Below are positions 33,001-42,000 of a stretch of DNA of 59,226 nucleotides, piece after piece. The position numbers are program-made. The first letter of the stretch is position 1, and the number at the start of each line of letters is the position of its first letter. Origin of the DNA: Oculatellaceae cyanobacterium bins.114 (GTDB taxonomy: Bacteria > Cyanobacteriota > Cyanobacteriia > Elainellales > Elainellaceae); the NCBI GenBank assembly GCA_033764315.1, contig JANRJA010000249.1, positions 1 through 59,226 of the forward strand. Reading direction: 5' to 3'.

Positions 33001-36000
33001 CGAATCTCGCAAAACACTCACCCAAATGGATAGCAATCTCACCGCATTCTCAGAACGTATGCTCAGTGGAGTTGCCTCCATTTATGGCAGAAGTAGCATT
33101 GAGTATGCCAAAGCAGGGGGTTCCAGACGTAAGAGCAGTCGATCAACGACAACTTCCGTTAAAACAACGTTTACTCTTCAATCGACTCAACCCACTCAAC
33201 CCACCACAACGACTGAGTCGAGCAATGGCAACGGCAAAGTCACATCCCTGCCCTAATTCATCTCCATCGATTGAGCCAAACTGATAAACACTAGAAAGCA
33301 CAGCAATAGCTGTGCTTTTTGATGGGTTGATTTAACACTGCACCCAATACACGTAACTCTCTTGGGTGTCATCAGAATAATGTTTGAGGCGAATCGCATC
33401 TCGCACTTGGTCAAGCAGTTTGGGCGATCGCAGTTCGGTAGATGAGATCATAGGGAAAACTTCAGTACTTATGCACCAAATGATACGGCATTAGTTTACG
33501 TACCCCTTGTAAAGATTTGCTGAAGTCTTACCACTATTTTCTCGATCTGAGAATAAAATCCGTCTAACTCCGCATTTGGCAAGATAGACAGAATCTCATC
33601 TATCCTAATTGCCATTTAGAGTGATTAGACAGACACAATTCTGTCTAATTCCCTGCATAAAGGTAGATAGACAGACGTAATTCTATCTAATTACCCCTAC
33701 AAGGGTAGTTAGACAGATCAGATCAGTCTACTTAATTGTTAGCCCGCAAGTTACGAAGTATGGCAGTAGTTTGAAGCTTGCTTGTTGGTGTCCCAAATTT
33801 TGGTTAACCCTTGCGCGATCGCGGAATGGCAGACACTTCCGATCCCCTTGATTCTTCCGTAATTCGATCGCGCTTTGCAGTCAGGTAAAGCTTAATTTTC
33901 TCAAGTTGCCGCATTTTTTCACCAATCTCCTCAAGTTTGCGATCAATGATTTTTAACTTTTCAGTGATTGGCACTGATCCGTTTCCCCACGTATCAATCA
34001 GATGCTTAATCTCATTCAGTGTGAACCCTAAAGATTTGCCTTGTGTGATGAGAACGACACGTTCCAGCATCTCTGGACTAAATTCCATATAGCTTCTTGT
34101 TCCGGCTTGTCGTGCCTTTGCTTCAATCAGTCCCATTTTTTCGTAGAAGCGGATTGTGTCCTTTGACAAGCCTGTCTTTTGTGCTAGTTCGCCGATCAAC
34201 ATCACTGCCACCTAAATTCTGAAGAAATTAATGCTTGACTGTGGAGTATACTCCATAGCTTACGCTAGAGCCGAAACCAATGAACACTCTGGAAATTTCT
34301 ATGAAAACCTTTGTTACGGGTGGTTCCGGGTTTGTCGGTCGCCACATGATTCAGATGTTGCGCGATCGTGGCTACGAGGTGATTGCGTTAGCAAGATCCG
34401 AACAAGCTGCAAAGCAAGTAGCTCAACTCGGTGCTAAGGCAGTTCGCGGCGATTTGCTAGATAGACAAGCGATGATTCAAGGAATGCAAGACTGCGATGT
34501 TGTGTTCCATATTGCAGGCTTTTTGAGCATTTGGGGTGAGTACAAAGCATTCTATGAAACCAATGTTGTTGGGACTGAGTGTACGTTGATTGCTGCACAA
34601 ACGGCAAATGTCCCTTGCTTTGTTCAGATTGGTGCGGCGGCTTCTGTATTCAATCGTCAGTCTGTATCTGAGATTGATGAATCTTATCCGCTCAAGCAAC
34701 CTGAATTTTCTCCTTACATTGCCACTAAAAGCCTTGCAGAACAAAGAGTCATCGCAGCAAACCGACCTGGGTTTAGAACCGCCGTAGTCCGTCCGTCTTG
34801 GATTTGGGGCAATGGGGATCACGTATTGCCTCAACTCATAACAGCAGTAAAAACAGGACGATTTATTTGGATTGATCAGGGCAAGTATTCATACATGACA
34901 ACTCATGTGGTGAATGTCTGTCATGGGGCAATTTTAGCGGCAGAACAGAGTCCCGGTGGACAGGCGTACTTCCTGAGCGATGGCGATGTCGTACAGTTTC
35001 GCAAGTGGGTTACAACATTGCTACAGATTGCTGGAGTCAAGCCGGGGCGCTTGAGTATTCCGAGATGGGTTGCTTGGAATGTCGCTGGATTTATGGAAGC
35101 AATTTGGAGAATCACGAGGCGTAAAGACATTCCGCCGATTACTCGGACAATGGTTCGGCTAATCGGGCAGGAATTGACTTTTACAGACCTTAAAGCGCGA
35201 GAAGAACTGGGTTACACTCCGATTGTGACTCGTGATTTTGGACTGGCGGAACTTGCCGATCTCTATCGATAAACGGGCTAACAATCCCGTTGCACACCGA
35301 CCGTCCAGAGTTTCTTCATTTAGTTCGAGAGGTTATTAGCGGCGGGTGAACGGGGTCGTTAGACGGCACCACAGCATTCTGTTTGCTCTACCGCTGAAAA
35401 CCTTGGATAACAGAATTACCCTCATGGGTACTGTCGATAAAGAAATATGTCACTTACGCTGAAATTCGATCAAGTAAGTTGAATTTCTTTGCTGAATGCT
35501 TCCTAGAACTTGTTCTTATCGTATGAAGCCCCTGGGAGAACTGCTATGTATAAAGTTCGTGGTAAGGTTTTGGTAAAAGAAACTGTCATTGGCATTCCAA
35601 ACCTGCAAGTTGTACTCTACGACCTTGACAATCCTGAGCAATTTCAAGGCAGCAAAACCCCCGGCGAATTCTTTACAGATCCTAAAAATCCTGACCCAAG
35701 GTTATTCTGGCAGCTTTTTCCGGGCGATCGACTAGGATCAGTTTTAACAGATGGACAAGGTGAGTTTGAGCTAACCTTTGATGAACAGGCATTTCAGGCG
35801 CGTGAGCAAACGAAGAAACCAGATTTGGTGTTGTTTGTAATAGCTCCAGAAGATACGCTGATTGACGACAAGGGCAATGCACTTCCATTCCCGGATTTAA
35901 CCAGAAATCGTATCCTACACTACTCCTACGACATTGCTGTTAATGCAGGGAAGAGTGAGCAGTACATCATTCGACTCTCCAAAGCTTTTCTCGATCGTTT

Positions 36001-39000: not shown

Positions 39001-42000
39001 AGAAATTTTTGCGGAATATCGAGAGTATCTCCTGAACCTGGTCAAAAAGCGTGTGGCCACACCGAGAAAAGAAAGCGAACTAGTTGTGGTGCCTACTGGA
39101 TCAGCTTATATCGAAGCATTACCAGGTAAGCATCCCATTCTGGAAGACTTCAAGCTTGTTCATCGTGCTTTGGATGTGAAGAAAGTTCAGGCAGAAGTTC
39201 GTAATGCTGAACTGGAAAATGTGCGTCTGGCTGCTCGTTTACTGGAAGGTGAACGGGAAGATCCTGATATCGATAAACGAATCATTATCGAGGGAAATAG
39301 TGAAGACATCATTATTCCTCCAGAAGCATAGATGAAATAACAAAATGGAGGTGGATGATGAGTTGGACTGTGAGCTTCCAAGTTATTTCTGGTGCTTTTG
39401 GTAGTCGTCCCAGTGATGATCGAAATCAAATCTGGGTAGGGGAAACTGTACGTTTTACTCTAAGTCCAGATCCCAGTTTGCCCAATTCATACGCAATGTT
39501 GCAAGATGCCCGACGCACACGGAATTGGGCGCGTTTACCTCAAATGACTGTAACAGGTACACGTAGTGTGGTCGTAACAGCAAATGCGAGAGATCCGCTT
39601 CAAATAGAATATACGTTTCGGTGGGAAGGACAGAAGCAATTGCACTTCACTGGAACACCAGGAGAAATTGTGCTACCAACTGCTACTCGCGCAAGAAGAG
39701 TTTCTGCTACAACCCTATTTCCGCCCCTAGACTACGAACTGGATTTAAGAGTTGTTCCTCCGCCAGAGAGAGGAAGAGATGCAGCATCAATGGCAGGAGC
39801 GGCAAGCCGAGAATATCAACGAGGGGAGCGAGAACGAGAACAAGAACAAGATCGATATCGGGGATTGGAGAGAGAGCGACAACAAGCAGAGCAACGTGAT
39901 AGGGCTGCTAGGAGAGATGTAGCAGAAGAGGAAAGAAGCGAAATATTATCTGGTGCAAGAGGTTCTAGGCGAAGGGCATTAAGAAATGGGTTGCTTAACG
40001 TTCGCTTGAGGACTGAAACAGAGCTTCTCCGTATGAGTATTAGTCAAGTAGAGGATTATCTCAGAGATCTGCAAGCAGCAATCAATGTTACGCCACCACT
40101 CGACTTAGCTAATTATGGCTGGAGATCTCAAGGTTCTGAGTTGCAATATGCTGATGCTTGGGAAACAGAACGGTTGCAGGATGGGCGAATTAAGTTCTAT
40201 CAAGTACGCCGATTTAGAGCAACAAGACCAGCAGCAACGGCTCGTGGTTTTGAGATTAGATCCGTTCCTGAAAGCTATCGCCATAACGAAATTATTTTTC
40301 CTGGTAATGCCTGGATTGTTGCTCAAGTAACAGGGCGAAGCGAAAAAGCGCTTTTTCCAGTTGCCGATTTGTCTAGCCAACTTGAAGCGGAACAGTGGGC
40401 AAGATTATTTGGCAGTTTAGTCAGCTTGGCATTTTTTGTTGCAGAAGCTGCTGTTGCTCCAGAAGCTGCTGTTTTTGAGCTTTTGCTGGAGATGGTTCTT
40501 CCACCTGAAGTGTTGCTAGCAGTCGCAGGAGTATCTATTGTACGAGGATTGGTTTCTGGTCTGAGACTTGTCATTACACGAGGTCTCCGAGGTTCTGCGA
40601 GAAGTGCGGTTAGGAGTTTAACATCTACTGTAGATGATGCTGTAGGTCAAGGCAGACGCACTATTACTTCACCAAGATCTCCTTCTCCTTCTGCGACTGG
40701 TGGTACTGGAAGTCGGGCAGCAGGTGAAATATTGGATGAAGGTGGCGATATTGCACGACGAGGAGAAAGAGGAACAGAAGCCGCAACACGACCTGATAGT
40801 GAAGCACGAGGTACAACCTCTGCTAGCCGTGGAACTTTGTCAGTACCAGATACGGATGATATTGACATAATCCTAGATCGATCCTTTGAAGCAACATTTG
40901 GTGGGCAGTTAGTTGATATGAATGCTACCCCCTATCGCCCTCCCTCGGCTCCATTTTCTGTATCTGCTCGTGCAAGACAAATCTTCAGAGCAGCGCGAGA
41001 AAGGTTTCGGAGTCTTCAACCTGGATATGCGAGTCAACTTGGTGTTGGTCGAGGAGGGCAGGTTCATCATGCAATTGAATTACAAGTTATTCAAAGATAT
41101 GGATCGGTGTTTATTGAACGAGAGTTAAATTCATTTGTGAATATGCGAGGTATACCTCCTGAAAGAACAGCAAGTGGTATTATGGATGCTGTGAGGGGTA
41201 GACGGCAGTTACATAACTCTTATATTCGACAACAGTGGGATCGTCAGTATGCAATTCTCGATCAACGAATTAGGGAATTAGGACTACGGCGAGGTTCTCC
41301 TGAGTATCGTCAGTTTGTGCGGCAATCTCTTGAAGAAGGCAGACGTGAAATTGACAATAGTGTTGGTCAGTTCTTTAGCGAGGTTCGCATGGGAGAAACT
41401 TGGACTCGTCGAATGTTGCCTCAAGATATGGCATCTCTTCCTGATGCAGATGGTGTAGTTAGAAGAGCAATTTCTCAGTAGTGTCATTTATCCCTTGACC
41501 AGATCTTATTGAATTAAGCCAACTTATTACTGCTGCTTACCCCGAAAAGCTCTGCCGTCTAACAACCGTGTTGCAGCGGACGGTATCTAGATCTTGGTGT
41601 TGATACAAAGGTTATTCGCCGCCGCTGAACACGACCGTTATGCCGCTTAGTTCTCGGTTGAAACAGTACAGCAGGGTTATTTGTGGGAGATTGAGTTCAA
41701 CCTACTTGTGCAATCACTTGACCAATTTCTTGAGGGGTTGCACCTGTTGCCAGCATTGCCCGAATCAGCAGTTCAATAGAAACAGACGCATCACCATTTT
41801 CAGCTTTGGCAACACGGGGTTGGCTGGAGTGCAATTTATCTGCCAGTTCTGTTTGAGTCATTGATTTTTGCCGTCGTTCCTTCAGGTTACGGCTCAATGC
41901 CAGCTTAATTTCAATGAGTGCTGTTTCTTCTGGCGTGAGGTCTAGAAATTCTGAAACTGTTCCAACTTTCCAGCCTTTGTCCTCTAATTTTTTTCTCTTA

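What a model noticed while it worked through the whole genome (the two positions that open the first line are those of the whole stretch)
35546..41481. Second unnamed carrier family (1,261 aa) followed by a polymorphic toxin-like gene
g03698 has a conserved ~700-aa C-terminal part shared by over 1,500 unnamed proteins of bacteria and archaea; the next gene is highly variable and, where recognisable, is a polymorphic toxin. Here the partner g03699 (707 aa) ends in an HH...N...H motif like HNH-type nuclease toxins.
Evidence so far: 1,503 homologs, no name, no shared Pfam; 158 matching stretches in GTDB, 80 read; no Pfam/PADLOC hit, Atlas neighbours hypothetical. A same-strand gene of 200 aa or more follows in 61 of 80 loci, 224-1,140 aa, only 2 similar to g03699. 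Pfam on 55 of the 61: 2 Ntox5, 2 PT-TG, 1 CdiA-C, 1 WHH nuclease, 1 M10 peptidase, 48 none.
(Added by a program. Inside this text positions count along the whole contig: contig position 1 is position 1 of the stretch shown here. "Call 12" and the like, gene names such as g00115 and contig names such as C1 are that model's own, and its searches are not shown. The text may have been shortened before it was handed on; [...] marks where a part breaks off. The agent that wrote the report below was given it as the finding of a first reader that could run no searches.)

Follow-up and report, generated by a model that had tools for sequence, protein, structure and literature searches.

The report
Pore-forming carrier with swappable toxin cargo
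This is a mobile two-gene unit, with relatives scattered across bacteria and archaea, in which a large unnamed protein shaped like a membrane pore-former is paired with an interchangeable toxic enzyme that usually carries a short repeated tag, which suggests a previously undescribed way for microbes to deliver toxins into rival cells.

Summary
g03698 (1,261 aa) belongs to a large unnamed family (1,710 clusters at 50% identity). It is followed by a rapidly exchanged partner; recognisable partners are mostly nucleases, deaminases, cell-wall hydrolases or pre-toxin domains.

Four points are new:
(1) With an alignment the core folds well (pLDDT 81). It shows long beta-strands around a Gly-rich amphipathic hairpin between two ~60-residue, oppositely charged arms. 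Foldseek and the ESM Atlas lean to aerolysin/Tpp-type beta-pore-formers, but neither is significant.
(2) Partners share a short repeated xRG(T/L/I) tag: first 70 aa in 44 of 87 (shuffles 6; genome background 2.8%). In long partners it usually follows a hydrophobic segment; in g03699 it lies just before the HNH-type toxin domain.
(3) Close relatives in three metagenomes diverge from g03699 at one base, just before this tag.
(4) The pair is a 6.28-kb integron cassette with no immunity gene; no third component recurs.

Best reading (0.55): a binary toxin in which a pore-forming carrier recognises RG-tagged polymorphic cargo and delivers it into other microbes. Pore formation, binding and target are inferred, not shown.

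The parts
33299..33418 (-). Remnant of an integron integrase gene (N-terminal ~40 codons), divergent from the array
   Evidence: TIGR02249 positions 1-40, E 8.4e-4, one stop; an intact intI (482 bits, over cut-off) lies on contig C16
33739..35358 (+). Upstream cassette: MerR-family regulator (minus strand) and NAD-dependent epimerase, ending in attC1
   Evidence: Core GTTAGCC at 33738-33744 is the reverse complement of the attC1 inverse core; Pfam/NCBIfam
35276..35364 (+). attC1; its core site (G|TT at 35358/35359) is the 5' boundary of the toxin cassette
   Evidence: identity with the L002 homolog begins at this core; a metagenome contig departs from the window at 35357
35359..41637 (+). 6,279-bp two-gene integron cassette holding g03698 and g03699 and no other same-strand gene
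   Evidence: 11-nt complementarity of 35358-35368 with 41553-41563 (pair I14); ORF list
35546..39331 (+). g03698, putative pore-forming carrier (1,261 aa), no signal peptide
35546..36010 (+). g03698 N-terminal beta-sandwich-like domain (residues 1-155); the N-terminal part is often encoded as a separate gene in relatives
   Evidence: Alignment A4; weak CarboxypepD_reg hits in 3 of 41 members; weak match to a lipoxygenase N-terminal domain, E 0.009; split forms
37427..37996 (+). Beta-pore-forming-like domain (residues 628-817): long strands, arm 1, hairpin, arm 2, long strand
   Evidence: AlphaFold2 secondary structure; Foldseek lean; Atlas lead
37667..37750 (+). Gly-rich amphipathic beta-hairpin (residues 708-735, tip V722), candidate membrane-inserting segment
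   Evidence: Alternating hydrophobic fraction across 97 homologs; insertions in distant families fall at the tip
38117..38554 (+). Long antiparallel coiled coil (residues 858-1003) inserted after the fourth strand
39077..39136 (+). C-terminal long strand (residues 1178-1197), candidate fifth core strand
   Evidence: E588-607 of the model; pairing with the core is inferred, coordinates could not be inspected
39358..41481 (+). g03699, polymorphic toxin cargo (707 aa), no signal peptide
40405..40572 (+). Hydrophobic, transmembrane-like segment of g03699 (about residues 350-405)
   Evidence: Kyte-Doolittle 19-mer maximum 1.83
40714..40714 (+). Toxin-module swap point (codon 453)
   Evidence: Contigs of three runs from three studies stop matching here (tables 7 and 8)
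40759..40836 (+). Three xRG(T) repeats (residues 470, 483, 490), candidate cargo tag
40984..41391 (+). HNH/EndoVII-type nuclease toxin domain (residues 543-678; H570, H571, N591/N595, H619)
41557..41643 (+). attC2, closing the toxin cassette
41697..42357 (-). RelE/HigB-like toxin and HTH antitoxin cassette, followed by attC3 (42402-42487)
42518..43407 (+). Probable PIN-domain (VapBC-like) cassette ending in attC4 (43323-43407)
   Evidence: Weak PIN hit, E 0.079; attC4

Best explanation
A two-component (binary) polymorphic toxin. g03698 is the conserved B component: an oligomerising beta-pore-former of aerolysin/Tpp-like topology whose amphipathic hairpin inserts into a target envelope, possibly as an unusually long barrel if both ~60-residue arms join it. 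The downstream gene is the exchangeable A component. It carries an unstructured leader with xRG(T/L/I) repeats that the carrier recognises and uses to load or thread the cargo. Short cargos with an N-terminal tag (for example cell-wall hydrolases) would act outside the cytoplasm. Long cargos such as g03699 add their own hydrophobic segment before tag plus nuclease, which may help cross a second membrane. Neither protein has a signal peptide and there is no immunity gene, so release by lysis with the cargo held inactive by the carrier is likely. The likely targets are other prokaryotes. Shown: gene coupling, polymorphism, tag enrichment, swap point, cassette, hairpin pattern. Inferred: fold family, oligomeric pore, tag binding, translocation, release route, target.
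For: Coupling: 82 of 84 loci; the only recurring neighbour (13 loci) appears to be the split-off N-terminus of the carrier. Fold: pLDDT 80.9 with strands of 20-30 residues. Hydrophobic fraction alternates across 97 homologs: 0.59-0.98 at five of six outward positions against 0.01-0.04 inward on strand 1, and 0.28-0.89 against 0.00-0.11 on strand 2. Arms are Ser/Thr-rich with net charge +5.0 and -4.4. 27 of 33 listed Foldseek rows are beta-pore-formers, top Cry78Aa E 0.34. Atlas feature search gives aerolysin and ETX/MTX2 clusters at 0.78-0.79. Cargo classes: M15 x3, M74 x2, 3D, Tox-HNH-HHH, CdiA_C, PT-TG, two deaminases, Endonuclea_NS_2, TGL; PT-TG x2 and DUF2380. Tag: 44 of 87 in the first 70 aa against shuffle mean 6.4, maximum 15; 29 of 49 partner clusters; tandem copies in 26 of 87 against 1.2; genome background 99 and 12 of 3,476 ORFs. 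Held-out: 3 of 7 new partners in the first 70 aa and 5 of 7 within 140 aa; the replacement module at the swap point begins with two RG repeats. Second cargos in tandem in L007, L039 and L061, the first two with N-terminal tags.
Against: No structural match is significant: Foldseek none at E<=0.001 and TM below 0.25; VIA gave only helical noise. HMM searches of PDB and Pfam found no pore-forming family. hhalign against a 4-sequence ETX/MTX2-like alignment was negative. Atlas scores under 0.9 are leads only. The arms next to the hairpin have conserved helical periodicity, so they may never become strands. About half of the partners lack the tag in their first 70 aa, and the motif was defined after seeing the data. 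Cell-wall hydrolases would not need a membrane pore to reach a Gram-positive wall. A nuclease without immunity is hard to reconcile with safe production. 70 of 86 partner calls have no Pfam family.
Confidence: 0.55

Rival explanations
1. Cell-autonomous defence (abortive infection or programmed lysis): the carrier holds the effector inactive inside the producer and, on phage infection or stress, forms pores and frees the enzyme to kill its own cell.
For: No signal peptide and no immunity gene. Patchy distribution: 1 of 401 cyanobacterial genomes, 3 of 301 and 2 of 401 close-family genomes in two other groups. Carried as an integron cassette beside toxin-antitoxin cassettes; that integrons carry defence genes is recalled.
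Against: No significant PADLOC match for either window protein or 9 relatives. No defence gene family recurs among 428 flanking ORFs. Cargos include periplasm- or wall-acting hydrolases and PT-TG/CdiA_C domains typical of exported polymorphic toxins. C-terminal module swapping is typical of inter-cell conflict.
Confidence: 0.15
2. The carrier builds a soluble tube or particle (a long beta-barrel like a podophage collar tube, or an umbrella-like complex) that packages or displays RG-tagged cargo, without itself being the membrane pore.
For: Two of the six non-pore Foldseek rows are phage collar or tail-tube proteins, and a podovirus lower collar appears weakly in BFVD. Symmetric long arms and a long coiled coil suit a needle.
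Against: The hairpin tip is strictly amphipathic over about 28 residues, a membrane-width pattern. No phage-like genes recur nearby. No homolog was found in viral contigs or phage records.
Confidence: 0.15
3. g03698 is a stand-alone cytolytic pore, perhaps aimed at protists or other eukaryotes. The partner is a co-released synergistic enzyme or is delivered by another machine such as an eCIS, and the RG repeats are a protease or chaperone site.
For: Known aerolysin-family proteins kill by ion leakage (PMC12691639, passages). Distant families with the same hairpin domain mostly lack a tagged partner (1 of 6 closely following same-strand genes). The host genome has sheath genes and a DUF4157 protein. 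A structural relative occurs in a giant virus (E 4.6e-5).
Against: Strict adjacency and joint transfer on one cassette. 6 of 10 genomes holding the pair showed no sheath match, although most are incomplete MAGs. No partner has a DUF4157 hit. N-terminal tags in the first 30 residues would release nothing useful if cut.
Confidence: 0.12

Closest known systems
[quoted passage not shown]
   Same: Conserved beta-barrel B component plus separate enzymatic A component threaded from an unstructured leader (PMC13462110, PMC8219829, passages); pore forms of PA, Ib and CDTb are among the weak Foldseek rows.
   Different: No sequence homology found. No signal peptide. Cargo is polymorphic, changes between carriers 87% identical, and includes antibacterial-type enzymes. 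Occurs in archaea and many bacterial phyla.
Aerolysin-family beta-pore-formers, nearest Tpp/Toxin_10 (Cry78Aa, Tpp80Aa1), monalysin, ETX
   Same: Long strands around an amphipathic, Ser/Thr-flanked insertion hairpin between strands 2 and 3, with a late fifth strand (family features from PMC9784298 and PMC12691639, passages); top Foldseek and Atlas leads.
   Different: Arms about 60 residues each with helical inserts; about 360 residues including a coiled coil between strands 4 and 5; no lectin domain; fixed downstream enzyme; no significant profile or structure match.
eCIS-associated toxins (DUF4157 effectors)
   Same: Environmental bacteria and archaea, diverse toxins, often no immunity gene, release by lysis (PMC8213781, passages).
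   Different: One carrier gene instead of a phage-tail operon; no DUF4157; no sheath, tube or baseplate genes recur beside the pair.
Classical polymorphic toxins (Rhs, CdiA, LXG, MafB)
   Same: Shared toxin domains (HNH-HHH, CdiA_C, PT-TG, MafB19 deaminase), C-terminal module exchange at a fixed point, extra modules downstream.
   Different: The conserved delivery part is a separate gene; no cognate immunity gene was recognised; the whole cargo gene, not only its tip, is exchanged.
Integron gene cassette in a CALIN or decayed integron
   Same: attC family, complementary core sites, intI remnant, intact intI elsewhere in the genome.
   Different: 6.28 kb, about three times the ~2 kb largest known cassette quoted in PMC4889954 (2016) and beyond that program's default 4-kb clustering distance.

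Membership tests
Aerolysin/Tpp beta-pore-forming superfamily | Amphipathic insertion hairpin between strands 2 and 3, with Ser/Thr-rich flanks | tested here: met
   Alternation across 97 homologs; Ser/Thr fraction 0.21-0.34
Aerolysin/Tpp beta-pore-forming superfamily | Five-strand core fold superposable on solved members | tested here: inconclusive
   Strand order fits; Foldseek rows mostly pore-formers but E>=0.34 and TM<0.25 on a pTM 0.31 model; VIA uninformative
Aerolysin/Tpp beta-pore-forming superfamily | Match to Pfam Aerolysin, ETX_MTX2 or Toxin_10 profiles | tested here: not met
   No member of alignments A3 (97) or A5 (26) listed against these families among the top 25 shown; hhalign to a shallow ETX-like alignment negative
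Aerolysin/Tpp beta-pore-forming superfamily | Oligomeric, membrane-inserted pore | not testable with these tools
   Needs bilayer or cryo-EM work
Bacterial_Exotoxin_B binary toxins | PA14/Binary_toxB domains and secretion signal | tested here: not met
   No Pfam or PDB sequence match; no signal-like N-terminus apart from probable mis-called starts (heuristic)
Bacterial_Exotoxin_B binary toxins | Phi-clamp and acidic lumen clamps | tested here: inconclusive
   Residues 763-780 average net -5.9, but lumen orientation cannot be assigned without a pore model
eCIS / T6SS cargo | Adjacent sheath, tube or baseplate genes, or DUF4157/VgrG/PAAR domains | tested here: not met
   No such Pfam hit in partners; no such cluster recurs among 428 flanking ORFs by BLAST clustering (flanking ORFs were not all Pfam-scanned)
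Classical polymorphic toxin system | Variable C-terminal toxin domain exchanged at a fixed point | tested here: met
   Three runs diverge at 40714; the L003 partner shares the N-terminal 341 aa and has another C-terminus
Classical polymorphic toxin system | Cognate immunity gene directly downstream | tested here: not met
   None inside the cassette; 0 of 46 downstream ORFs hit a named immunity family; unknown immunity families would be missed
HNH/EndoVII toxin nuclease (g03699 C-terminus) | HH...N...H metal-binding motif in a beta-beta-alpha-metal fold | tested here: inconclusive
   Motif present and conserved in L077; Atlas 0.91-0.92 to AHH/GHH2/SHH clusters, TM by query 0.33-0.46; no Pfam hit
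Integron gene cassette | Flanking attC sites with complementary core and inverse core; integron integrase in the genome | tested here: met
   (34 further sites of the same family at E<0.01 in the genome)
Integron gene cassette | Excision as a circle by IntI | tested here: inconclusive
   No circular joint in contigs of four runs; contigs drop rare forms
   Family not supplied; look-ups of earlier findings were empty

The most novel reading that the evidence does not exclude
A new class of single-gene toxin delivery machine in bacteria and archaea. It is a lysis-released, long-stem beta-barrel translocase that crosses prokaryotic envelopes and accepts any enzyme bearing a short RG-repeat tag, needs no immunity gene, and is one branch of a large unnamed superfamily of pore-forming proteins.
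Probability: 0.4. Interest if true: 0.92.

Novelty: new variant of a known kind. Interest (0 to 1): 0.8.

Why it matters
Protein-translocating beta-pores are known mainly from one family of anti-eukaryote binary toxins with fixed partners (my own knowledge, consistent with the passages read in PMC13462110). A second, unrelated lineage that swaps among many unrelated enzymes and apparently targets microbes would add a new delivery route to polymorphic toxin biology. The carrier would also serve as a marker for new toxin domains, since most partners have no family. The short tag makes cargo selection directly testable. The case also shows that integrons can move a complete 6-kb toxin system as one cassette.

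Tried and rejected

Distribution: no homolog in viral contigs or phage records; 4 of 18 plasmid records were full-length. No RNA holder was listed. No sigma-70-like promoter was found in 35270-35600.

Cassette context elsewhere: a generic attC heuristic was too noisy. The genome-specific profile hit only L002 among other loci, so cassette carriage is shown only for this lineage.

Immunity: counting small downstream ORFs (29 of 65 loci) was rejected as evidence because many look spurious.

Literature: searches listed no paper describing this family. The library holds only open PMC and bioRxiv texts, and an unnamed family is hard to find by words.
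Full report
Observation. Both genes are present as described. The C-terminal 671 residues of g03698 define a large unnamed family: 1,228 proteins among 8,000 scored candidates and 1,710 clusters at 50% identity. Neither window protein has a significant Pfam, PADLOC or NCBIfam match. Named hosts include cyanobacteria, Bacteroidota, Alphaproteobacteria, a polyangiacean, Scalindua, methanogens and a haloarchaeon. The distribution is patchy: 1 of 401 cyanobacterial genomes, which is the window's own, and 3 of 301 and 2 of 401 genomes with close members in two other groups.

Gene coupling and polymorphism. I read 104 loci (24 genomic; 80 metagenomic, the best 80 of 212 confirmed). All 84 with at least 900 nt downstream had a same-strand ORF next; 82 of 84 were 200 aa or longer and 69 of 84 also lay within 130 nt. 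Two calls (L011 hydrolase, L022 transposase) are probably not partners but were kept in the counts of 86 and 87. Partners change quickly: 6 of 98 carrier pairs at 70-90% identity have related partners, and the two closest cyanobacterial carriers (87% and 79%) have partners unrelated to g03699. Pfam names 16 of 86 partner calls: three M15 and two M74 peptidases, one 3D domain, Tox-HNH-HHH, CdiA_C, PT-TG, two deaminases, Endonuclea_NS_2, a transglutaminase, two DUFs, and the two non-partners. Seven later partners add two PT-TG and one DUF2380. Among 428 flanking ORFs the only cluster in more than four loci appears to be the carrier's own split-off N-terminal part. None of 46 downstream ORFs hit a named immunity family. 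Some loci carry a second cargo in tandem (L007, L039, L061).

Carrier anatomy. With a 74-sequence alignment AlphaFold2 gave pLDDT 80.9 and pTM 0.67 for residues 591-1261. The elements are long strands at 628-656, 661-670, 761-782 and 788-817, helices at 692-714 and 730-760 around a low-confidence loop, a coiled coil at 858-1003, and a late long strand at 1178-1197. Across 97 homologs, residues 708-735 alternate hydrophobic and polar positions around a Gly-rich tip. The span from P658 to N783 is nearly fixed (median 126 residues), and the two arms are Ser/Thr-rich with net charges of +5.0 and -4.4. In distant families, found at E 1e-26 to 1e-7, length variation falls at the hairpin tip. This is the pattern described for aerolysin-family cores: five strands, an amphipathic insertion loop between strands 2 and 3, Ser/Thr enrichment (PMC9784298 and PMC12691639, passages seen). 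Two weak searches agree. The Atlas returned aerolysin and ETX/MTX2 clusters at 0.78-0.79, behind three unnamed clusters. Foldseek with the isolated domain listed beta-pore-formers in 27 of 33 rows, led by Cry78Aa, with two phage collar or tail tubes among the other six. Against this, no match was significant, that model was poor (pTM 0.31), VIA was uninformative, and profile tests were negative. I therefore say the carrier probably works like a beta-pore-former and do not file it in any family. If both arms joined the barrel it would be roughly 1.5 times the 100-A barrel of PA (PMC8219829, passages; the PA residue count is recalled). The conserved helical periodicity of the arms may mean they stay helical.

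The cargo tag. Otherwise unrelated partners share [DESTAN]RG[TILVA]. It occurs in the first 70 residues of 44 of 87 distinct partners (shuffle mean 6.4, maximum 15; 13 of 222 control ORFs), in 29 of 49 partner clusters, and as tandem copies in 26 of 87 (local shuffles 1.2), most often 5 or 7 residues apart. Genome background is 99 and 12 of 3,476 ORFs. The pattern was written after seeing these sequences. Held-out checks: 3 of 7 new partners carry it in the first 70 aa, 5 of 7 within 140 aa, and 2 of 7 not at all. One row (L008) comes from an unpublished genome, G403; without it the counts are 43 of 86 and 25 of 86. Position depends on architecture: 39 of 65 partners without a hydrophobic segment have the tag at the N-terminus, against 5 of 20 with one, and 12 of those 20 have it after the segment (kin are not independent). 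None of 6 wall-hydrolase cargos has a hydrophobic segment, against 3 of 6 nucleic-acid-targeting ones; these numbers are small. g03699 is of the long type: N-terminal 341 aa shared with the L003 partner, hydrophobic segment, repeats at 470, 483 and 490, then the HNH-type domain. Contigs of close relatives in three metagenomes from three studies stop matching at base 40714 (codon 453). The one divergent end I could see, read in frame, begins with two RG repeats five residues apart. The tag thus travels with the toxin module.

Mobile context. The pair fills a single integron cassette. Four attC sites lie at 35276, 41557, 42402 and 43323, and a profile of them finds 34 more in the genome at E<0.01. 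The cassette's first bases complement the inverse core of its closing attC over 11 nt. An intI remnant precedes the array and an intact intI lies on another contig. Identity to the L002 homolog begins at the core site, and a metagenome contig leaves the window at 35357. At 6,279 bp it is about three times the largest cassette size quoted in PMC4889954 (passages). Because a cassette moves as a unit, the two genes are probably the whole system, with no immunity gene. Cassette carriage was not shown outside this lineage.

Mechanism. The most economical reading is a binary toxin: a conserved pore-forming B component and a tagged, exchangeable A component, by analogy with PA-type translocases that thread cargo from its N-terminus (PMC13462110, PMC8219829, passages). 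Lack of signal peptides (heuristic) and immunity parallels eCIS toxins released by lysis (PMC8213781, passages). The host has sheath and DUF4157 genes, but 6 of 10 other genomes with the pair showed no sheath match, most of them incomplete. Wall hydrolases among the cargos point to bacterial targets. Rivals are defence inside the producer (0.15), a non-membrane tube or particle (0.15), and an independent cytolysin with separately delivered cargo (0.12).

Literature. Nine searches listed no description of this family. I saw passages of six papers (PMC9784298, PMC12691639, PMC13462110, PMC8219829, PMC4889954, PMC8213781) and only listings of the rest. No supplements were read; tables of toxin-associated gene families in such supplements could contain it. 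Look-ups of earlier findings returned nothing.

Verdict. The feature is real, unnamed and well supported as a two-gene polymorphic toxin unit with a shared cargo tag. The pore-translocase mechanism is the best guess, not a result. Interest 0.8; new variant of a known kind, with a 0.4 chance of a new class of delivery machine.

Noticed in passing
window:33299-43407: A decayed integron: intI remnant, repeat-rich attI-like region and four cassettes (MerR plus epimerase, the toxin pair, two toxin-antitoxin-like pairs). The genome holds at least 34 more attC sites of the same family on many contigs and an intact intI on C16.
   Followed up: yes
L148-L162 (for example L148:4620-6758, L157:3620-7963, L155:7431-12899): Several distant unnamed families (665-1,822 aa) share only the hairpin domain; two carry peptidoglycan-binding or M23 peptidase domains in the same chain. 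They suggest a large unannotated pore-forming-like superfamily.
   Followed up: partly
BFVD A0A5K0U6Q4: An uncharacterised 642-aa Yasminevirus protein matches the hairpin-domain model at E 4.6e-5 (TM 0.28).
   Followed up: no
L033, L034, L035, L037, L039, L043, L047, L059 and others: The carrier is often encoded as two adjacent genes (about 500-670 plus 680-700 aa, or 150-340 plus 850-1,040 aa), so its N-terminal modules work in trans. L014 holds it in five pieces.
   Followed up: partly
L077:4901-6589: This partner carries the g03699-type HNH domain at its N-terminus and has no RG tag, the reverse of the usual order.
   Followed up: partly
L002:12026-13610 and L007:3005-4036: Related lysozyme-like cargos (recalled motif, no Pfam hit) in two cyanobacterial loci; L002 adds a probable alpha/beta-hydrolase as second cargo.
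   Followed up: no
L112:8072-9766: The Sinorhizobium partner lacks RG repeats but begins with a different repeated tetrapeptide (DRMC twice), perhaps an alternative tag.
   Followed up: no
window:32239-32595: Tandem array of a 21-nt unit (about 13-17 copies) behind a Gly-rich 524-aa ORF at 30648-32222 that has no Pfam match.
   Followed up: no
G000:C150:38803-39312, C72:3166-3543, C75:9323-9553: The host genome has two sheath-like genes and one DUF4157 protein, consistent with an eCIS.
   Followed up: partly
L163-L166: ETX/MTX2-like proteins occur in a few genomes of the cyanobacterial sample (5 of 281 with a match).
   Followed up: partly
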